DNA of 64,000 bases from an uncultured archaeon (GTDB lineage Archaea > Asgardarchaeota > Thorarchaeia > Thorarchaeales > Thorarchaeaceae), in contig CAZLEV010000003.1 of assembly GCA_964558645.1 (NCBI GenBank), forward strand, positions 128,001 through 192,000, written 5' to 3'. Shown here one piece after another: positions 373-7,569 of this stretch (within the stretch, counting starts at the first letter, position 1; every line of letters starts with the position of its first letter). The notes under the pieces were generated by a model. That model was not told the origin of the DNA and made no database searches. It saw only the letters and a list, made by a program, of their open reading frames with translations. The position numbers and the translations under genes are program-made.

Positions 373-2346
373 GTGTGCTGCAATCTGATTCACAATGTTA
401 TACTCATCGACAAGGCGACTGGAGAAGTCGTCACTAGGGTCAGATTCTGGAAGATAGACTTCACTGATGATGATATACGTGAGTTCATGAATGGGTATTC
501 GGATCTCATGGACACCGAGGGTCTCTCTCCAGACACTCCGGTCTATGTCGGCGAGCACAAGGTGTTCCACTCTCTTGTTGATGATGATATTCAGCTCATG
601 CTTGTTACTGATGGCAGAGATGAGGATCGAACAATTGTCCGAAAAGCCAAAGAAGGAGCCGCCCGGATATCTACTGCACTGAGGGGTAATAGCATAGGGT
701 ATGTGAAAGACAATCTGGATGATATTCTAGATGAGCTGGTCTTCACAAGATTCAAGGTGTCTTTTGTTGGCTCCGGTGGTGTTGGCAAGAGTACGTTGCT
801 CAGACTACTGTTTGGCAAGGAACCAGCACCAGGCGGCTATGTTCCCACTATCAACGTCGCCGTAGACTCGTCAGAGACAATACAGTTCGGCACTTTTCTC
901 GTCACCATATGGGACTTCGCAGGGCAGGCGGTATTTCAAGATCTCTGGGCCTTCTATTTCTCGGGCACAGATGTCATTTTCCTCATTACTGACAGCAGTT
1001 TCCGGAATGTGATGCAGACCAAGAGCCTGCTGCGAACCATTCGGAAGGAAGCTCCTGCGGTTCCGCTCTTCATCATTGCAAACAAACAGGATCTCCCGGA
1101 GTCCATGCGAGCTGAGAAGATTCAGCGGCTTCTGGGTGCACCTACGTTCCCAATGGTTGCAACGGACAAGACTCGAAGGGACGAGTTCATTCGACTGATG
1201 CTCGAGGTAGCCACGAAGACAGTGGGAGTCGAGTTGCCCGACAGGCCTCTGAGTGAGATGATTACGGTTCACCGAAAGGACAAGGAGGTTGAACTACCTC
1301 CTCAGCCTGGCAATATTCGCAGCGATTCAGGTGCCACGTCTGGTGAGAAAGGGGAGTGGATCGAAGCTCAGCACAGTGGAGAGAGCGGACTCTCGGGTGA
1401 CTTGAGAGCGGGCGAAGTCAGTGGCGACTCGACAATCGACTACCCCGTCAATATCGAGCCCGAATCTGATGCGGTTGTTGAGATTCCTGAGAAGATTGCT
1501 GAGCAGGCACGGGTTCTCCATGTGATTATGATCGTTCAGGACAGCGGGACGTTCCATACCTGCTACGAGCTCAACTATGCCAACGAGGAAGTGGACGCCA
1601 CCGCAATCACATCTTTGATCTCCGCTCTCGATTCCTTTGGTGGAATCGACGGTGATCCCAGCGGCATGGCCGATAAGAGTGACGCCCTTAAGAGAATCGA
1701 ACACGAAGGAAACCTGGTCATGGTGGAGAAGTCTGACCATTTCTTGCTAGGTGTGACAGTCACCAATGACAGTGAAGAAGAGAAGTATCGAAGGATCATG
1801 TCCTCTCTGCTCTTCGAGTTCGAAGAAGCATATCAAGGAACTTGGGGTGCCTGGGATGGAGATGTGACAATCTTTGAACCCACCGTTTTTTCACTTCTGC
1901 AGAAGATACCAATGAGCCCTATCAGTTTCGACTATGTAGTTCGCGCACGTGAGGCCGGTCGTCCGCTATCATTTGACAGTAGAGAGGTGGGTCGTTCCAT
2001 TGTGGAAGTCAAGAGCGCAATAGAAGGGTCTGAGACCGTTGGAGGCTTGGTTAGAAGCCTAGACCTTCCCCGGGAGAATGTCACTGGAGCGCTGCAGATC
2101 ATGGAGCATTTTGGATGGATTAGCTTTCAAGTTGACCTCGGGCCACAGAGCATTCCTAGGAAAGTCAAGAATCCTGATCCTGACACAGTCAAGGCTTATG
2201 GCACAGCGGTTGTCAAGTTCGTGGATTACTGTGATGGCGAAACACCTCTGGAGGATGTCGTAAAGAAGGTCGGTGTAAGCTACAACGCTATGAAGTTCGT
2301 CGCGACCAAGCTTGTGCTATCTGGTGTTCTTGAGATTGTGGCTTAG
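373..2346 (+). CDS. Longin - Arf/Rab-like small GTPase - longin - tandem winged-helix fusion protein
   Basis: G1 GSGGVGKST, G2 YVPTI, G3 IWDFAGQ, G4 NKQD. N-terminal IHNVILID..G longin pattern; second longin (LHVIMI...ITSLISALDSF...FEFEEAY...WDGDVTIF); C-terminal wH pair. Start is GTG 373 or possibly CTG 385. Confidence 0.85.
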   Translation: MCCNLIHNVILIDKATGEVVTRVRFWKIDFTDDDIREFMNGYSDLMDTEGLSPDTPVYVGEHKVFHSLVDDDIQLMLVTDGRDEDRTIVRKAKEGAARISTALRGNSIGYVKDNLDDILDELVFTRFKVSFVGSGGVGKSTLLRLLFGKEPAPGGYVPTINVAVDSSETIQFGTFLVTIWDFAGQAVFQDLWAFYFSGTDVIFLITDSSFRNVMQTKSLLRTIRKEAPAVPLFIIANKQDLPESMRAEKIQRLLGAPTFPMVATDKTRRDEFIRLMLEVATKTVGVELPDRPLSEMITVHRKDKEVELPPQPGNIRSDSGATSGEKGEWIEAQHSGESGLSGDLRAGEVSGDSTIDYPVNIEPESDAVVEIPEKIAEQARVLHVIMIVQDSGTFHTCYELNYANEEVDATAITSLISALDSFGGIDGDPSGMADKSDALKRIEHEGNLVMVEKSDHFLLGVTVTNDSEEEKYRRIMSSLLFEFEEAYQGTWGAWDGDVTIFEPTVFSLLQKIPMSPISFDYVVRAREAGRPLSFDSREVGRSIVEVKSAIEGSETVGGLVRSLDLPRENVTGALQIMEHFGWISFQVDLGPQSIPRKVKNPDPDTVKAYGTAVVKFVDYCDGETPLEDVVKKVGVSYNAMKFVATKLVLSGVLEIVA

Positions 2347-2349
2347 AGG

Positions 2350-4485
2350 TTAGACGTCAAGCACAATCCTCTCCTTGTATTGGGGTAATAGGATATCGCC
2401 ACTTGTTTTCTTGATTGGAGTATGAACCATGGCTTTCTTGCCCGTGCAAGAAGCAACGAACTCTGCGAGCCTTGAAGCTGATGAGTGGGCACTAAGCCGT
2501 GCATATTCAACAGCACACTTGTGATCTTCGTATCCATGCAAGAGATTCCATCCGGTTGTACGTGGTGCAAGGTACCCACACAAGATGACAGCTGCATCTG
2601 GGTTATGTCGATGCTCATTGTAGTGCATTTTGGCAAAGCCGCCGTCGAGCATTCCACCTCCAGCCACTAGAATGTCGTCATCTTCGAGAACGACTTTGTT
2701 CTTTTTCATGCCTGTCCAGTCGCCATTGTAACCCGTCAGCTTGGTCACTCGTTCTGCCATGCCCGCCACAATCACGTTTCTAGATGAGGTAATCCCAAGT
2801 TCGTCAAGCATGACAAGGACTTCCTGTGACCTGCCGACGGCGAAGGTCGGAATAATCACTGGACCGTGTCTGGCTATGGTCTGCGAGACCTGATCAGATA
2901 CTTGTCTTCTGTCGAAATCCTCCCTTTCCCAGTATGTACCGTCAAAGATTGTCAAATCGCAGTCTGTAGGTAGGGTAGCTCCGTGGAACAGCACGGATTT
3001 ATCAAGATTGAAATCACCTGTGTAGAGAATCCTTTTTCCCTCCACATCCACGACAAAAGCCGAGCTTCCGGGAATGTGTCTTGCCTCAGTCGGGGTGACA
3101 ACAATGCCTCCGGCTAGCTCGCTTGCTGTCCCCGTTTCTAGTTGTACATAGTTTCTCTTGACTTTGTCTATGTTCGTCCGATTGAACCAGGAAACCATGT
3201 CATACTTGTCATTCCGTCTCGGCGGAAGTGGAGTCCCTACCTTGAGGGCATCCTCAAGAAGAGTCATCGAAACTGCCCCCGTGATCCCGCTTGCACACCA
3301 CTTCCCCGGATAGTGCTCATAGAGCGCAGGAAGTCCTCCAACGTGATCAAGATGTGAGTGTGTGATAAGCACGCAGTCAATCATCTCCAGTTCAGGGACC
3401 CATTCAGGGATTCTCTGATTAGCGACTGACAGACCGTAATCAAGGAGGATGGCACTGGTATCTGTCCTCACCAGAATGCCACTTCTGCCAATCTCTGGCC
3501 CACCAAGGAATATTATCTCTACTTGCTTGGCCCTTCTAGAATACGCAATTGACGACATCAGTTCCACTCGGAGTTTCTGTGGAATCATCTCAAAGAGGAC
3601 GGGTTCAACTGCTTCAGGAGGGGGTGCCGAATCAAGATCCTGCAGGCGGATGGGCAGTACTCTCCCTTCAGCACTCATGAATCTCCTCTTCTGATAGACT
3701 CTCTGAACGGCATCATATGCCTCTGAAACACCTGCCTCCGGACCAATCTTCTCTTGTGCTTCTTGATTGACTCTCTTTCGGAATATATCGAGAATCCTAG
3801 ATGACAGCACATCAGGCAGCCAGCTTCGGGTTGCCTTATAGACATCCAAGTATTCCTTCCCCCGGAGAGCCTCCTCCAAGTACTCCGGATATCGGCGGAT
3901 CGAATCTGTGAGTCTGAAGTCATCGGATTCCAGGGCTGATTCCAGATTCAAGCCAAGCTCTGAGGCGGGTTCTCTGAAATCATCCGGCTTATAGTAGGGG
4001 GATCCTAAGAACGCAATCCATTCTCTTAGACCACTCATTACCTGCATCGCATTCTTTCCCGATGCGATTTCGATGAGAACAAGGGCTCTCTTCAGAAGGG
4101 CATCTACGCCTTCTTGATGGAGCTTTCCGAGAGAGTATCGATACACATATCGAAGGTCTTCCTCGTCGAAATTTCCGAAGATAAAACCATAGCAACACAT
4201 TGCCAGCGCATCGAGGTATTCCTGCAACGATAATCGGTCTATCTCGCTCAGAAAGATCTTACGTAGGGTCTCGCTCACCTTCGCACCATGCTCTATTCCT
4301 TCGATATCCTCATCAATAGCTACTCTGGCCTGGTAGACTGCAATTTCCAGGCTTCGCTTCAATGGACCGTCCAGGTCCGAAATATCAGCTCTTTCGTCGG
4401 ATATAGAATGGGAGCTGACTCTGGAGAAGAAATCCTGAATCACTTCTGTTGAGGCATCTTCCCGGAGTCGTTCGATCAGTGTCAT
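2350..4485 (-). CDS. Beta-CASP metallo-beta-lactamase ribonuclease (aCPSF-like) with ~320-aa helical N-terminal extension
   Basis: GGPEIGRS, LLDYG, THSHLDHVG, HIPGS, YTGD, DGTY, FAVGRSQE, GMLxGG, LSAH and VH motifs. Confidence 0.85.
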   Translation of the reverse strand: MTLIERLREDASTEVIQDFFSRVSSHSISDERADISDLDGPLKRSLEIAVYQARVAIDEDIEGIEHGAKVSETLRKIFLSEIDRLSLQEYLDALAMCCYGFIFGNFDEEDLRYVYRYSLGKLHQEGVDALLKRALVLIEIASGKNAMQVMSGLREWIAFLGSPYYKPDDFREPASELGLNLESALESDDFRLTDSIRRYPEYLEEALRGKEYLDVYKATRSWLPDVLSSRILDIFRKRVNQEAQEKIGPEAGVSEAYDAVQRVYQKRRFMSAEGRVLPIRLQDLDSAPPPEAVEPVLFEMIPQKLRVELMSSIAYSRRAKQVEIIFLGGPEIGRSGILVRTDTSAILLDYGLSVANQRIPEWVPELEMIDCVLITHSHLDHVGGLPALYEHYPGKWCASGITGAVSMTLLEDALKVGTPLPPRRNDKYDMVSWFNRTNIDKVKRNYVQLETGTASELAGGIVVTPTEARHIPGSSAFVVDVEGKRILYTGDFNLDKSVLFHGATLPTDCDLTIFDGTYWEREDFDRRQVSDQVSQTIARHGPVIIPTFAVGRSQEVLVMLDELGITSSRNVIVAGMAERVTKLTGYNGDWTGMKKNKVVLEDDDILVAGGGMLDGGFAKMHYNEHRHNPDAAVILCGYLAPRTTGWNLLHGYEDHKCAVEYARLSAHSSASRLAEFVASCTGKKAMVHTPIKKTSGDILLPQYKERIVLDV

Positions 4486-4504: not shown

Positions 4505-5560
4505 TTAGCGCTCGATGGGCTTGACGGCCATAAATAGTCCTCGTCTGCTATCGCGGAGTGACAGGTGCTTCTTGACCAGTCCTTCAGACATCAGGATGGA
4601 GAGTGCATGTCTGACTGTTCTCGCAGGTAGCATGGTCTCCTCTATGATTTGTCTGGCTGTCAGCTTCTCATGGTATTCCAGTACTTTGAGCACGAGCTTC
4701 GCACTGGGAGGTAGATCTTGAGCAAGATCCTCAAGGATGTCTGTTTTCTTCTGCAATTTGCCGCGCAGGGCGGCGATTCTCTCTTCGGTAAGTTTCACGA
4801 ATATCGCATCGCTATCTGCTCTTCTAACAATGATTGGGCCAGAGTTCACGTTATGCCTGAGCTGCCCATCTAGAATGGTCTCTACCATTACCGGGCAGGT
4901 CAGTTTGCGAATCTCGATTTCTATATTATCCGCCACAATCAGTGGTCTTCTTGCGGGATTTGTGCTGTTCACTGGTATCACAGAGAGAACCGGGGCAGGA
5001 GATAGCACTATGGGGCCGCCTGTACTCAAGGAGTAGGCTGTACTTCCAGTAGGAGTGGCTATGATAAGTCCATCACTGCCGTCTTTCCAAAACTCCTCTC
5101 CATCGAGGTTCAGTGAATACCTGATAAGTGTAGCATTGCGTTTGGCAAAGATAGCTGCTTCATTAAGAGCAGGTGGAATTTCGCTATCGCCAACAGTAAC
5201 TGAGAGGCGAGAACGATGATCTTCAGTCCACTCGCCTGCAATCAAGTCTTCAACGGCAAGTTCGAAATTGCCTGTCGTAACGTCAAAGAAGAAGTCCGGC
5301 TGCCCTCGTGAAGAAATAGGCAGAATTGGGGTTGGGCAGTTGCCCATCTGTAGTAGGGTGTCAAGGACTGTTCGGTCAGAGCCAACGACGGCCACGACAT
5401 CCGCATCTAGGTCATCAAGGTTCTTGCCCGAGGAATCCAAGGCTTCTGCCAGCCCATGCTCTAGAATCACGTCTGCTCCCTCTTGATTGAGCAGATACAG
5501 CACTGACTTTGCGTCCTGAATCATGCTTGACTCATTGCCGGAAATCAAACCAATCTTCGT
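4505..5560 (-). CDS. NAD(+) kinase-family protein fused to a C-terminal winged HTH
   Basis: ALNE and DGLIIATPTGSTAYSLSTGGP motifs; GGDGT motif altered to GSDRT; C-terminal LPPSAKLVLKVLEY...LPARTVRHALSILMSEGLV wHTH. Start uncertain (ACG 5560, TTG 5548 or ATG 5524). Confidence 0.85.
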   Translation of the reverse strand, partial: TKIGLISGNESSMIQDAKSVLYLLNQEGADVILEHGLAEALDSSGKNLDDLDADVVAVVGSDRTVLDTLLQMGNCPTPILPISSRGQPDFFFDVTTGNFELAVEDLIAGEWTEDHRSRLSVTVGDSEIPPALNEAAIFAKRNATLIRYSLNLDGEEFWKDGSDGLIIATPTGSTAYSLSTGGPIVLSPAPVLSVIPVNSTNPARRPLIVADNIEIEIRKLTCPVMVETILDGQLRHNVNSGPIIVRRADSDAIFVKLTEERIAALRGKLQKKTDILEDLAQDLPPSAKLVLKVLEYHEKLTARQIIEETMLPARTVRHALSILMSEGLVKKHLSLRDSRRGLFMAVKPIER

Positions 5561-5657
5561 GTTTCATTCCTCCCCAGAGGGAACATGTCTTGTCGTTCTA
5601 CCTTACCCTCTTAAATTGAGTGCCGAATTGTAAAGCATCACTATACTCATATTGTTT

Positions 5658-5699
5658 GGCAATTATTGCCGAGGCTTCATCAATGGGTCAATAATTGCC
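5658..5699. promoter_or_regulatory. Two copies of a palindromic operator GGCAATWATTGCC between divergent NADK-HTH and nadA
   Basis: GGCAATTATTGCC (5658-5670) and GTCAATAATTGCC (5687-5699), 29 bp apart, just upstream of an AT-rich TATA-like CATTAAAA (5711-5718). Confidence 0.65.
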
Positions 5700-5758
5700 G
5701 GTTGAGATTTCATTAAAATACCCTATTTGATGCTTAATCTCGACGGATTTGATGAAGG

Positions 5759-6715
5759 ATGAAACTCAACGAACTTCAGAAACGCATTGTCGAACTGAAA
5801 GCAAGGCGTAATGCACTCATCCTGGCCCACAACTATCAGACACTTGAAGTACAGCAAATAGCAGATTTCGTTGGTGATTCGCTGCAGCTCGCTAGGAAAT
5901 CATCAGAGATAGAGGGCTTTGATATGGTCATCTTTGCAGGTGTACGTTTCATGGCCGAAATGTCAGCTGTCTTGACGGACATCCCAGTCTATATTCCAGA
6001 TCCAGATGCTCTCTGCCCCTTGGCTGCTTGGGTCCATCCTGAGAAGATTCGTTCAAGACGGAGCGAGTATCCTGATGCTCCAGTAGTAGTCTATGTCAAT
6101 ACGACTGCAGAAACCAAGGCCGAATGTGATGTCATATGCACGTCGAGCAATGCCGTTGAGGTCATTGAATCTCTTGGTGCTACACAGGTTCTGTTCGGTC
6201 CAGACAGGAATCTAGCCGAGTATGTTCGCAGGCAGACTGACTGTGAAATTGTTGATATAGAACCTCGTGGGAGCTGCTATGTTCACCTCCAATTCGTGCC
6301 CGAGGATATCACTCGACTGAAGGAGGAGCATCCTGATGCTATTGCTATTGCCCATCCGGAATGTCCACCAGAGGTTCAAGAGGTATCGGACATCGTTGGT
6401 TCGACAGGGAAGATGGTTCAAGTTGTTGCTGAGTCTTCAGCTCGAAAGTTCATTATAGCCACTGAGTTAGGCCTAGTAGAGCAGCTCCAGGCTGACCATC
6501 CTGACAAGATGATCATGGCTGCAAAGCCCACTGCAGTATGTAGAACTATGAAGAGGATTACTCTTGAGAAAATTCTTCATGTCTTAGAAGACTTACCTGC
6601 CGATCATCGGGTAACAGTTCCGAATCATATGACTGATCACATACGCACTGTATTGGAGAAGATGAACCGCCTCAAGACACGTGAAGAGGCAGAAACTGTG
6701 ACTGCCTCACATTAG
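5759..6715 (+). CDS. nadA: Quinolinate synthase A
   Basis: ILAHNYQ, GDSL, GVRFMAE, YVNT, CTSSNA, PDRNL, CYVH, AHPEC, GST and ATE motifs; Fe-S cysteines present. Confidence 0.95.
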   Translation: MKLNELQKRIVELKARRNALILAHNYQTLEVQQIADFVGDSLQLARKSSEIEGFDMVIFAGVRFMAEMSAVLTDIPVYIPDPDALCPLAAWVHPEKIRSRRSEYPDAPVVVYVNTTAETKAECDVICTSSNAVEVIESLGATQVLFGPDRNLAEYVRRQTDCEIVDIEPRGSCYVHLQFVPEDITRLKEEHPDAIAIAHPECPPEVQEVSDIVGSTGKMVQVVAESSARKFIIATELGLVEQLQADHPDKMIMAAKPTAVCRTMKRITLEKILHVLEDLPADHRVTVPNHMTDHIRTVLEKMNRLKTREEAETVTASH

Positions 6716-6900: not shown

Positions 6901-7569
6901 CTAGTCCTCCTCTCGAAATCTGATTACATCAAGGAGCTCAGATAGTTCTCCAATTACAGGCCCGTCATGTCCAGCCTCTCTGAAATCATCTTCAGAAAAC
7001 ATCCCTGCAACCGCTACGAAGGAGCAATATCCATTTGCTCTCTCATAGTCCTTGATTGAATCTCCAACAAAGACAATTTCTGACATCTCAATATTGTGTT
7101 GCTCTTGCACATACTTGAAGTGATCCTTGCCCTTTTCGAATCCGGGCCTGTATCCCAATATCTGGTCGAAGAAGTTCTGCAGGTTCCTTCTGGCAAAGTA
7201 CTTCTCAATTGTCGACTGAAAAGTCGACGAGGAAACGAATACCGAAAACCCCCTGTCGTTAAGCACGGCAAGGGTCCTGACTGTATCAGGGAAGAGTCTC
7301 TGGTCATAGATGGAGTCTATCTTCAGTTTCTCAAACTCTTCAATCGCATGCTTATTTTCGGTTCTGTCAGGGAAGTTGATTTGTATCTGCTGTTCGAATG
7401 GTAATCCTGTTGTTGTCCTGTATCTCTTGGTGGCTTCTTCGCTGGTGATGTCGTAATACTTCATCATGGTTCTGACACCAATTCTCTCCAGGAATGGCAT
7501 GCTGTCTGCCAGCGTTCCATCAAAGTCAAGGATGACAGCAGTACACGGGATTGGCTCTCTCATATTCAT
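6901..7569 (-). CDS. HAD-superfamily hydrolase
   Basis: Motif I DFDGTLADS, motif II SSS, K, motif IV VGDSIKD. Confidence 0.9.
   Translation of the reverse strand: MNMREPIPCTAVILDFDGTLADSMPFLERIGVRTMMKYYDITSEEATKRYRTTTGLPFEQQIQINFPDRTENKHAIEEFEKLKIDSIYDQRLFPDTVRTLAVLNDRGFSVFVSSSTFQSTIEKYFARRNLQNFFDQILGYRPGFEKGKDHFKYVQEQHNIEMSEIVFVGDSIKDYERANGYCSFVAVAGMFSEDDFREAGHDGPVIGELSELLDVIRFREED

What the first reader, a model, noticed from the sequence alone, without database searches (positions are those of the whole stretch)
4505..6715. NAD-kinase-wHTH fusion divergent from nadA: candidate new NAD-sensing transcription factor
Seen: the NAD-binding motifs (NE, DG...TPTGSTAY) are intact, but the GGDGT phosphate-binding motif reads GSDRT. 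A wHTH is fused C-terminally, and the gene is head-to-head with quinolinate synthase. Known: characterised NAD-biosynthesis regulators (NadR, NiaR, NrtR, NadQ) are HTHs fused to repurposed enzyme folds. I recall NADK-HTH fusions in other archaea but no characterised regulator of this type. Inference: the kinase fold serves as an NAD(P) sensor controlling de novo NAD synthesis and its own gene.
Basis: partly seen in the sequence, partly recalled or inferred. Interest (0 to 1): 0.8.

Follow-up and report, generated by a model that had tools for sequence, protein, structure and literature searches.

The report
NAD-kinase-derived regulator of archaeal nadA
A Thorarchaeota (Asgard) gene joins a remodelled NAD kinase to a DNA-binding winged helix and faces the NAD-synthesis gene nadA across a palindrome found only where the gene is present, so it is very probably an undescribed archaeal transcription factor for NAD synthesis.

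Summary
ORF 4505-5548 (-) encodes 347 aa with an NAD-kinase fold and a C-terminal winged helix. It lies 210 bp head-to-head with nadA (5759-6715, +). GGDGT reads GSDRT, and the following GxNxGxLGFL loop is replaced. The NE motif, conserved region II and the catalytic Asp are kept.

The altered motifs are fixed, not decaying: GSD[R/K] occurs in about 118 of 121 orthologues, and dN/dS is 0.05-0.12. The genome has a separate canonical GGDGT NAD kinase.

Evidence for a regulatory role:
- The divergent nadA pairing holds in 20 of 21 first-survey loci, at 34-90% identity.
- More distant lineages pair the gene with nadA-nadC, nadX-nadA or pncB/pncA.
- All 19 compact (about 200 bp) nadA-facing Thor intergenic regions carry GGCAA-N3-TTGCC about 101 bp before the nadA ATG. 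It is the top-scoring site in this genome.
- The palindrome recurs in a Bathyarchaeota locus, and upstream of nadA in a genome where the regulator lies elsewhere.
- It is missing from four Thor genomes that have nadA but lack the regulator.

The effector, the sign of regulation and the loss of kinase activity are inferred. I found no publication. This scan has already reported the family on other genomes with the same reading.

The parts
4505..5548 (-). NADK-wHTH gene (347 aa): candidate NAD-metabolism transcription factor
   Evidence: ORF and translation. Pfam and NCBIfam hits. AF2 model and Foldseek matches to NAD kinases. More than 110 orthologues at 50-90% identity. dN/dS 0.05-0.12 within the genus.
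5369..5383 (-). GSDRT (aa 56-60), in place of the GGDGT phosphate-binding and catalytic motif
   Evidence: In the 121-row family alignment, 119 rows cover this stretch: G56 in 119, S57 in 118, D58 in 118, R/K59 in 114. Of 60 unfused NADK cluster representatives, 56 read GGDG.
5282..5329 (-). PILPISSRGQPDFFFD (aa 74-89), replacing the canonical P-[VI]-L-G-[IV]-N-x-G-x-L-G-F-L loop
   Evidence: HMMER alignment to 4hao and 7mh7. The derived motif P-I-L-P-x-[AS]-S-x-G-Q-P-D-F-L-F-D is nearly invariant in the family.
5159..5164 (-). NE short motif (aa 129-130), retained
   Evidence: N129 is invariant in the 59-sequence alignment. NE or ND occurs in 72 of 72 wHTH-bearing cluster representatives.
5009..5074 (-). 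Conserved region II, DGLIIATPTGSTAYSLSTGGPI (aa 159-180): dinucleotide-binding site, retained
   Evidence: D159, G160, T165, P166, G168, S169, T170, Y172, G177 and G178 are invariant. The Ppnk residues shown vital by mutagenesis (D85, N159, E160, T200, Y202; PMC8553519) all have counterparts here.
4526..4717 (-). C-terminal winged helix-turn-helix (aa 278-341)
   Evidence: Weak MarR_2, HTH_9, ArsR, GntR and TrmB hits. AF2 shows helices 281-292, 298-305 and 309-321 and strands 325-329 and 337-341. It has the lowest dN/dS of the protein, 0.02-0.05. LPPSAK...RTVR.AL...LRDSR is conserved across Asgard families.
5658..5670 (.). Site 1: perfect palindrome GGCAAT-T-ATTGCC (core GGCAA-N3-TTGCC), the candidate operator
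   Evidence: It is present with at most 1 mismatch in 19 of 19 compact nadA-facing Thor intergenic regions, 94-108 bp before the nadA ATG. It is the highest PWM score in the 3.63 Mb genome, 22.5 bits. The 7 other exact matches all lie inside long ORFs. It is absent from 4 related nadA loci that lack the regulator.
5687..5699 (.). Site 2: GTCAAT-A-ATTGCC, a one-mismatch copy 29 bp downstream that ends 13 bp before the nadA TATA box
   Evidence: The 29-bp offset holds in 18 of 19 loci. The right half TTGCC is invariant. The left half G-N-C/A-A-A is present in about 11 of 19. The right half persists in genomes without the regulator, so only the left half looks specific to the regulator.
5702..5720 (+). 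Conserved TTGAGATT block and the nadA TATA box (TTAAAATA, 5713-5720)
   Evidence: Columns 44-61 of the anchored 18-locus comparison are conserved. The block is also retained in regulator-less genomes.
5608..5616 (-). Putative TATA box of the regulator / beta-CASP operon (ATTTAAGAG on the minus strand)
   Evidence: CTCTTAAAT is conserved in most of the loci, at a variable distance from site 1. It is retained in front of the beta-CASP gene in genomes where the regulator gene is absent.
5759..6715 (+). nadA (quinolinate synthase), the predicted target gene
   Evidence: Pfam NadA 2.5e-101 and NCBIfam equivalog 351.7 bits, above the 294-bit cut-off.
2350..4485 (-). 711-aa beta-CASP metallo-beta-lactamase gene 19 nt downstream, probably co-transcribed with the regulator
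   Evidence: Pfam Lactamase_B and Beta-Casp hits. It lies downstream of the regulator in all Thor-family loci whose flank reaches that far. Where the regulator is missing, it sits directly behind the same promoter.

Best explanation
The gene encodes a transcription factor of NAD metabolism that evolved from NAD kinase.

- DNA binding (inferred): the C-terminal winged helix binds the palindrome GGCAA-N3-TTGCC at 5658-5670, and probably the weaker copy at 5687-5699, just upstream of the nadA BRE/TATA.
- Sensing (inferred): the NADK body is the sensor. It keeps the dinucleotide pocket (NE motif and region II), so the likely effector is a pyridine dinucleotide (NAD+/NADH or NADP+/NADPH).
- Kinase function (inferred): the phosphoryl-donor side has been rebuilt into a new, strongly conserved surface (GSD[R/K] and GQPDF[LF]FD). 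A separate canonical NAD kinase makes the cell's NADP, so this protein is probably no longer a working kinase.
- Sign (inferred): the sites lie upstream of the TATA box rather than over or after it. I therefore lean (about 55:45) to an activator that leaves the DNA when the end product is plentiful, as proposed for RbkR. The alternative is an end-product co-repressor.
- Family history (inferred): members with intact GGDG, found in DPANN and in an Asgard genome with no other ~300-aa NADK, look like bifunctional kinase/regulators. The Thor form looks like a later, sensor-only stage.

Shown here: the architecture, the motif states, the paralogue, the synteny, and the conservation and co-variation of the operator.
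For: 1. Architecture: an NADK fold plus a wHTH.
2. Redundancy: the genome has a canonical NADK with GGDGT, NE and region II on contig C2. Every Thor genome that carries the fusion also gave a second, canonical-type match.
3. Synteny: nadA lies divergent in 20 of 21 first-survey loci at 34-90% identity. Among 12 more distant Asgard loci, 6 face nadA (3 of them nadA-nadC) and 2 pair with pncB, one of those also with pncA. In Bathyarchaeota the neighbour is nadX-nadA.
4. Lineage logic: nadA was not found in two f29 genomes (87-91% complete). There the regulator sits in front of pncB, so it follows whichever NAD supply route the lineage has.
5. Operator conservation: site 1 occurs in 19 of 19 compact nadA-facing Thor intergenic regions at a fixed distance from nadA, while the N3 spacer and the flanks vary.
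6. Operator uniqueness: site 1 is the best PWM hit in the genome and the only exact match outside a long ORF.
7. Operator in distant lineages: related palindromes occur in families f5 and f15. A perfect GGCAA-ATA-TTGCC occurs in the Bathyarchaeota locus, 20.9 bits.
8. Operator in trans: in G031 the regulator lies away from nadA, yet GGCAATTTTTTCC lies about 113 bp upstream of the nadA-nadX-nadC operon, 14.7 bits. In the own genome hits of about this score occur roughly once per 190 kb.
9. Co-variation: four Thor genomes lack the regulator but keep nadA and its neighbours. None has site 1; the best score anywhere in those loci is 8.9 bits.
10. Motif statistics: only 18 of 72 wHTH-bearing cluster representatives keep GGDG, against 56 of 60 unfused NADKs. 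NE/D and region II are kept in all 72. The clusters are related, so this is descriptive.
11. Selection: dN/dS is 0.05-0.12 overall, lowest in the wHTH.
12. Precedent: RbkR is an archaeal kinase/wHTH regulator whose operators lie 1-12 nt upstream of promoter elements and whose DNA binding is suppressed by its product (PMC5397151).
Against: - No binding, ligand or activity measurement exists; everything is comparative.
- All five Ppnk residues shown vital by mutagenesis, including the catalytic Asp, are retained, so kinase activity cannot be excluded.
- The TTGCC half of site 2 and the TTGAGATT block persist in genomes without the regulator. They may belong to the core promoter or to another factor. 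Only site 1 is firmly tied to the regulator.
- In this genome no site was found upstream of nadB, nadC, nadX or pncB, so the regulon would be one target gene plus perhaps the regulator's own operon.
- In families f29 and f32 and in L055, the PWM finds no clear palindrome next to the gene. The G336 (f32) nadA locus has none either.
- The wHTH Pfam hits are below gathering thresholds.
- The gene is co-transcribed with a beta-CASP nuclease whose link to NAD is unknown.
Confidence: 0.66

Rival explanations
1. It is a bifunctional 'trigger enzyme': a still-active NAD kinase (possibly with an altered phosphoryl donor or acceptor) that also regulates nadA, like RbkR, BirA or NadR.
For: - D58, N129, E130, T170 and Y172 correspond to the residues shown vital in M. 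tuberculosis Ppnk, and all are kept.
- The N-terminal domain is under purifying selection (dN/dS 0.12-0.20).
- The replaced motifs are themselves nearly invariant, which suggests a working site rather than a dead one.
- 18 of 72 fusion clusters keep GGDG, including Micrarchaeota and Diapherotrites.
- G031 has an intact GGDGT fusion and no other ~300-aa NADK was found there.
Against: - Two glycines of GGDG are replaced, by Ser and by Arg/Lys, and the GxNxGxLGFL loop is gone.
- 56 of 60 unfused NADK representatives keep GGDG.
- The PF01513 N-domain model scores 17.9 bits, below its 25.5-bit cut-off.
- A canonical NADK is present in this genome and in every fusion-bearing Thor genome surveyed.
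- Across lineages the motif has changed in many different ways (GRDR, GGAA, GDSG, GNDK), as expected when catalysis is no longer required.
Confidence: 0.2
2. It is a wHTH regulator whose real business is the co-transcribed beta-CASP nuclease, or some process other than NAD. The nadA neighbourhood and the palindrome would then be incidental or belong to another factor.
For: - The beta-CASP gene follows the regulator by 19 nt and is conserved downstream in all Thor-family loci.
- The TTGCC-GnTTGAGATT block at the nadA promoter persists without the regulator.
- Some lineages (G031, L055, Micrarchaeota) have no NAD gene beside the fusion.
Against: - The beta-CASP link is confined to families f1 and f2, whereas association with NAD genes spans at least five Asgard families and Bathyarchaeota.
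- Site 1 keeps a fixed distance to the nadA start, not to the regulator's promoter.
- Site 1 is lost exactly where the regulator is lost, although the beta-CASP gene and its promoter remain.
- In G031 the palindrome sits at nadA, far from the regulator.
Confidence: 0.07
3. The winged helix is not a DNA reader. It would mediate protein contacts or oligomerisation of a specialised NADK paralogue, and another protein would bind the palindrome.
For: - The wHTH hits are sub-threshold and include the RPC82-type HTH_9, a protein-interaction wH.
- No DNA-binding data exist.
Against: - The wHTH is the most constrained part of the protein.
- The helix carrying R-T-V-R-x-A-L is conserved in the lineages that share the GGCAA/TTGCC palindrome.
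- Presence and absence of the operator track this gene.
Confidence: 0.05

Closest known systems
RbkR, the archaeal riboflavin kinase / wHTH regulator (Rodionova et al. 2017, PMC5397151)
   Same: - It is an archaeal cofactor-pathway regulator built from a small-molecule kinase of that pathway plus a winged helix.
- Its palindromic operators lie a few nt upstream of the promoter elements of biosynthesis genes and near its own gene.
- Its kinase domain is the sensor.
   Different: - The enzyme fold is unrelated (CTP-dependent riboflavin kinase, not NADK).
- RbkR is a proven active kinase. Here the kinase motifs are remodelled and a separate NADK exists.
- The operator motif is different.
- RbkR is validated by EMSA and a crystal structure. 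This protein is not.
Bacterial NAD regulators NadR, NiaR, NrtR and NadQ (PMC2330245, PMC2330246)
   Same: - They do the same job: control of nadA/nadB/nadC and salvage genes.
[quoted passage not shown]
- Their genes often lie next to NAD genes.
   Different: - No sensor domain is shared. NrtR and NadQ carry Nudix-related domains and NadR carries NMN adenylyltransferase and ribosylnicotinamide kinase domains; Pfam finds no domain here beyond NADK and wHTH.
- They are bacterial repressors.
- None uses an NADK fold.
- The held literature names no archaeal NAD regulator.
Canonical NAD kinases (Ppnk, Afnk, LmNADK1; PDB 1u0r, 1suw, 2i1w, 7qvs)
   Same: - The two-domain fold is the same (Foldseek E 1e-23, target-normalised TM about 0.8).
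- The NE/D motif, region II and the catalytic Asp are retained.
   Different: - GGDG reads GSDR and the GxNxGxLGFL loop is replaced.
- About 90 residues of linker and wHTH are added at the C-terminus.
- The protein scores far below NCBIfam equivalog cut-offs.
- It is a dispensable paralogue, absent from 31 of 85 genomes of the same family.

Membership tests
NAD kinase (EC 2.7.1.23; Pfam PF01513 + PF20143) | Two-domain NADK fold | tested here: met
   PF20143 matches at 5e-20. The AF2 model matches solved NADKs over about 275-290 residues at E 1e-23.
NAD kinase (EC 2.7.1.23; Pfam PF01513 + PF20143) | GGDG motif (described as one of three motifs conserved in all NAD kinases; PMC8553519) | tested here: not met
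   The motif reads GSDR(T). The Asp is kept and two glycines are replaced. The change is fixed in the family.
NAD kinase (EC 2.7.1.23; Pfam PF01513 + PF20143) | NE/D short motif and conserved region II | tested here: met
   N129-E130 and DGLIIATPTGSTAY at 159-172; the key residues are invariant in the alignment.
NAD kinase (EC 2.7.1.23; Pfam PF01513 + PF20143) | Scores above curated family thresholds (N-terminal Pfam domain; NCBIfam equivalogs) | tested here: not met
   PF01513 scores 17.9 bits against a 25.5-bit cut-off. The best NCBIfam equivalog scores 133.8 against 326 bits.
NAD kinase (EC 2.7.1.23; Pfam PF01513 + PF20143) | Phosphorylates NAD(H) to NADP(H) | not testable with these tools
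   This needs an enzyme assay.
MarR/TrmB-type winged-helix transcription factors | wHTH domain recognised by a family model | tested here: inconclusive
   MarR_2 scores 23.1 bits against a 27-bit cut-off. TrmB, ArsR and GntR hits are also sub-threshold. The AF2 topology H-H-H-beta-beta fits a wHTH. Some orthologues carry precomputed PF12802 or PF13412 hits.
MarR/TrmB-type winged-helix transcription factors | Palindromic operator near its own or target genes | tested here: met
   GGCAA-N3-TTGCC is conserved in 19 of 19 compact nadA-facing loci and absent where the gene is absent.
RbkR-type 'trigger enzyme' regulators (analogy only) | Homologous riboflavin kinase sensor domain | tested here: not met
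   Pfam finds only NADK and wHTH hits. The resemblance is in design, not descent.
NrtR / NiaR / NadR / NadQ | Family-specific sensor domain (for example the Nudix-like domain of NrtR or the NMNAT and RNK domains of NadR) | tested here: not met
   No such domain appears in the Pfam or NCBIfam scans.

The most novel reading that the evidence does not exclude
The family would record a repeated enzyme-to-sensor transition. A bifunctional NAD kinase/regulator survives with intact GGDG in DPANN archaea and in an Asgard genome with no other ~300-aa NADK. After duplication it lost catalysis independently in several lineages. In Thorarchaeota the donor site was then rebuilt, with Arg/Lys in place of the fourth Gly and a new GQPDF loop, into a pocket that reads the 2'-phosphate. 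The protein would then report the NADP(H)/NAD(H) balance rather than total NAD. It would be the first NAD-responsive transcription factor known in Archaea.
Probability: 0.3. Interest if true: 0.85.

Novelty: new variant of a known kind. Interest (0 to 1): 0.7.

Why it matters
NAD synthesis is controlled by dedicated transcription factors in bacteria, but I found no regulator described for Archaea in the held literature. This family offers a concrete candidate with a defined 13-bp operator, a defined target (nadA) and an obvious list of ligands, so it can be tested directly with EMSA and ligand titrations. It also gives a well-sampled natural series from probable bifunctional kinase/regulator to probable sensor-only pseudo-kinase. 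That series is useful for studying how enzymes become allosteric sensor domains. Finally, it corrects database annotation: these proteins are variously labelled NAD kinase, sugar kinase, MarR regulator or hypothetical.

Tried and rejected
- Homodimer prediction with NAD riding along gave no verdict (score 0.08 against a mark of 0.42). It counts neither for nor against oligomerisation.
- Regulon extension in this genome failed. The 7 other exact palindromes all lie inside long ORFs. The near-matches close to nadX, nadC and nadB also fall inside long ORFs (the nadB one inside nadB itself), and their upstream regions score 6.2 bits or less. The pncB-like upstream region has none.
- A phyletic test, asking whether the regulator is absent only where nadA is absent, failed. 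Four of five regulator-less Thor genomes do have nadA. This then became the operator co-variation test.
- I first read site 2 as a full second operator. That had to be weakened, because its TTGCC half and the TTGAGATT block persist without the regulator.
- Seven literature searches found no paper on an NADK-wHTH regulator or any archaeal NAD regulator and one reading of the NrtR paper did not either. Absence from the held library is not proof of absence.
- Pseudogene reading: rejected by dN/dS of 0.05-0.12 and by motif invariance.
- Whether family f29 relies on the fusion as its only NADK is inconclusive. Two of five MAGs have a separate canonical NADK and three (87-91% complete) show none.
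Full report
**What is there.**
The minus-strand ORF 4505-5548 encodes 347 aa from a TTG start.
- Pfam finds the NAD kinase C-terminal domain at residues 128-252 (5e-20). It also finds a cluster of weak winged-helix hits at 278-336 (MarR_2 8.3e-5).
- NCBIfam NAD kinase models align residues 10-268 but score far below their cut-offs (133.8 against 326 bits).
- An AlphaFold2 model built from 59 family members has mean pLDDT 86.6. It shows the NADK body, a disordered linker (264-274) and a three-helix plus beta-hairpin wHTH (281-341).
- Foldseek places the body with solved NAD kinases at E 1e-23, target-normalised TM about 0.8.
- nadA (5759-6715, +; Pfam 2.5e-101) is divergent, 210 bp away.

The organism is a Thorarchaeota-type Asgard archaeon, judged from the names on the closest database proteins.

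**The kinase motifs are remodelled, not decayed.**
- Of the 121 rows of the family alignment, 119 cover this stretch. Gly56 occurs in 119, Ser57 in 118, Asp58 in 118 and Arg/Lys59 in 114.
- The canonical P-[VI]-L-G-[IV]-N-x-G-x-L-G-F-L loop is replaced by an equally invariant P-I-L-P-x-[AS]-S-x-G-Q-P-D-F-L-F-D.
- The NE/D motif and conserved region II are intact.
- A review of NAD kinases lists GGDG, NE/D and region II as the three motifs of all NAD kinases. It names Asp85, Asn159, Glu160, Thr200 and Tyr202 of Ppnk as vital (PMC8553519). All five have counterparts here, so inactivity is an inference, not a fact.
- Within the genus, dN/dS is 0.05-0.12 overall, 0.12-0.20 in the N-terminal domain and 0.02-0.05 in the wHTH. 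The gene is functional and the DNA-binding end is its most constrained part.

**A canonical NAD kinase exists elsewhere.**
- Contig C2 encodes a 302-aa NADK with GGDGT, NEV and region II.
- Contig C11 has a third, 377-aa NADK-like protein.
- Every fusion-bearing Thor genome also gave a canonical-type match. The fusion itself is absent from 31 of 85 genomes of the same family. It is an accessory paralogue.

**Synteny.**
- In 20 of 21 loci from the first survey (34-90% identity) nadA is divergent from the fusion.
- Of 12 further loci from more distant Asgard families, six face nadA. Three of these (family f5) carry nadA-nadC.
- In family f29 the fusion precedes a pncB-like phosphoribosyltransferase on the same strand. 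nadA was not found in two f29 genomes, which are 87-91% complete.
- In family f32 the fusion lies beside pncB and an isochorismatase (pncA-like) gene.
- Outside Asgard, a Bathyarchaeota member is divergent from nadX-nadA. A Geothermarchaeota-type member abuts an isochorismatase. A Micrarchaeota member has no NAD neighbour.

**The operator.**
- All 19 compact (about 200 bp) nadA-facing Thor intergenic regions contain GGCAA-N3-TTGCC with at most 1 mismatch. It lies 94-108 bp before the nadA ATG, mostly 100-101 bp, with a variable spacer and variable flanks.
- In this window it is the perfect palindrome at 5658-5670.
- A PWM built from these sites ranks it first in the whole 3.63 Mb genome, at 22.5 bits. 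The seven other exact matches lie inside long ORFs.
- A second site (5687-5699) follows at a fixed 29-bp offset. It ends 13 bp before a conserved TATA box (5713-5720).
- Related palindromes occur in families f5 and f15. A perfect GGCAA-ATA-TTGCC occurs in the Bathyarchaeota locus, at 20.9 bits.

**Two tests tie site 1 to this protein.**
- In G031 the fusion lies next to nfnAB-like genes and a HAD gene, away from nadA. Even so, the nadA-nadX-nadC operon carries GGCAATTTTTTCC about 113 bp upstream, at 14.7 bits. In the own genome, hits of about this score occur roughly once per 190 kb.
- Four Thor genomes lack the fusion but keep nadA and the same neighbours. They have no site 1; the best score anywhere in those loci is 8.9 bits.

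Those four genomes do keep the TTGCC-GnTTGAGATT-TATA block. The right half of site 2 may therefore belong to the core promoter or to another factor. Only site 1 and the left half of site 2 look specific to the regulator.

**Family-wide picture.**
- A profile search of 1.84 billion cluster representatives found 72 near-complete wHTH-bearing clusters among the best 150 hits.
- Only 18 of these keep GGDG, against 56 of 60 unfused NADKs. NE/D and region II are kept in all 72. The clusters are related, so the contrast is descriptive.
- Across Asgard families the motif reads GSD[RK], GRDR, GGAA, GDSG or GNDK.
- It is intact (GGDGT) in G031, the one genome sampled where no other ~300-aa NADK was found.
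- Intact forms also occur in Micrarchaeota and Diapherotrites.
- This fits a bifunctional ancestor that became sensor-only after a second NADK took over catalysis.

**Mechanism and its limits.**
I conclude that this is a transcription factor for NAD supply genes, with the NADK dinucleotide pocket as its sensor. The sign of regulation is open. The sites lie upstream of BRE/TATA. In Archaea, and specifically for RbkR (operators 1-12 nt upstream of promoter elements, DNA binding suppressed by the product FMN; PMC5397151), that position suggests activation relieved by the end product. A co-repressor model as in bacteria remains nearly as likely. Autoregulation is plausible but weaker, because site 1 keeps its distance to the nadA promoter and not to the regulator's own TATA (5608-5616). 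In this genome the predicted regulon is nadA alone. No sites precede nadB, nadC, nadX or pncB.

**Novelty.**
Searches of the held literature found NadR, NiaR, NrtR and NadQ for bacteria and RbkR for archaeal riboflavin. They found nothing on an NADK-derived or any archaeal NAD regulator. This scan has already reported the same family on other genomes, with follow-ups reaching the same reading. The present window adds the regulator-less control genomes, the in-trans operator in G031 and the motif-state census.

Noticed in passing
window 5546-5573 (-): There is no in-frame ATG for the conserved N-terminal strand (M)KIGLISG. An ATG at 5567 sits 2 nt after a GGAGG but is out of frame. It opens an 11-codon uORF that ends 9 nt before Met9. 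A sister genome (L009) shows a 7-nt duplication (GAAGATT GAAGATT) that created an in-frame TTG at the ideal spacing. Here and in L008 that codon reads ACG. Translation must start at ACG, ATT, the TTG at 5548, or Met9 by reinitiation.
   Followed up: partly
window 2350-4485 (-): A 711-aa beta-CASP metallo-beta-lactamase has a ~320-aa N-terminal extension with no family hit. Its closest NCBIfam models are aCPSF1 and Cas14, both far below cut-off. It lies 19 nt downstream of the regulator and is conserved there in all Thor-family loci. In genomes lacking the regulator it sits directly behind the same TATA element. Its link to NAD is unknown.
   Followed up: partly
window 6901-7569 (-): A HAD-IA hydrolase convergent with nadA is conserved in at least 14 Thor loci and in three of the four regulator-less genomes examined. 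A HAD gene is also convergent with the fusion in G031 (L051). It might be a nucleotide or NADP phosphatase of NAD metabolism, but this was not tested.
   Followed up: partly
window 5695-5709 (+): The block TTGCC-G-G-TTGAGATT immediately upstream of the nadA TATA box is conserved across Thor genera whether or not the NADK-wHTH gene is present. It could be an unusually extended BRE or the site of a second factor.
   Followed up: partly
G000 contig C11, locus L003:1492-2625 (-): A third NADK-like paralogue (377 aa, FVGGDGT) has no NCBIfam hit. It recurs as a 372-384 aa protein in other Asgard genomes (G031, G044, G052). Its function is unknown.
   Followed up: no
G000 contigs C9:120381-121892 and C11:12365-13876: Two nadB matches have identical scores and open-frame lengths on different contigs. 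This suggests a duplicated or redundantly assembled segment. The genome's contamination estimate is 6.3%.
   Followed up: no
window 373-2346 (+): A 657-aa protein has an Arf/Roc-type small GTPase domain (residues about 125-256) inside a much longer multi-domain frame. Other readers of this scan have noted it as a longin-GTPase fusion.
   Followed up: no
L047 (G321) and L048 (G336): In Asgard families f29 and f32 the NADK-wHTH gene sits with a 422-454 aa archaeal-type nicotinate phosphoribosyltransferase, and in f32 also with an isochorismatase. nadA was not found in two f29 genomes. The GGCAA-N3-TTGCC PWM finds no site near the fusion there or in the G336 nadA locus, so these lineages may use a different operator.
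   Followed up: partly
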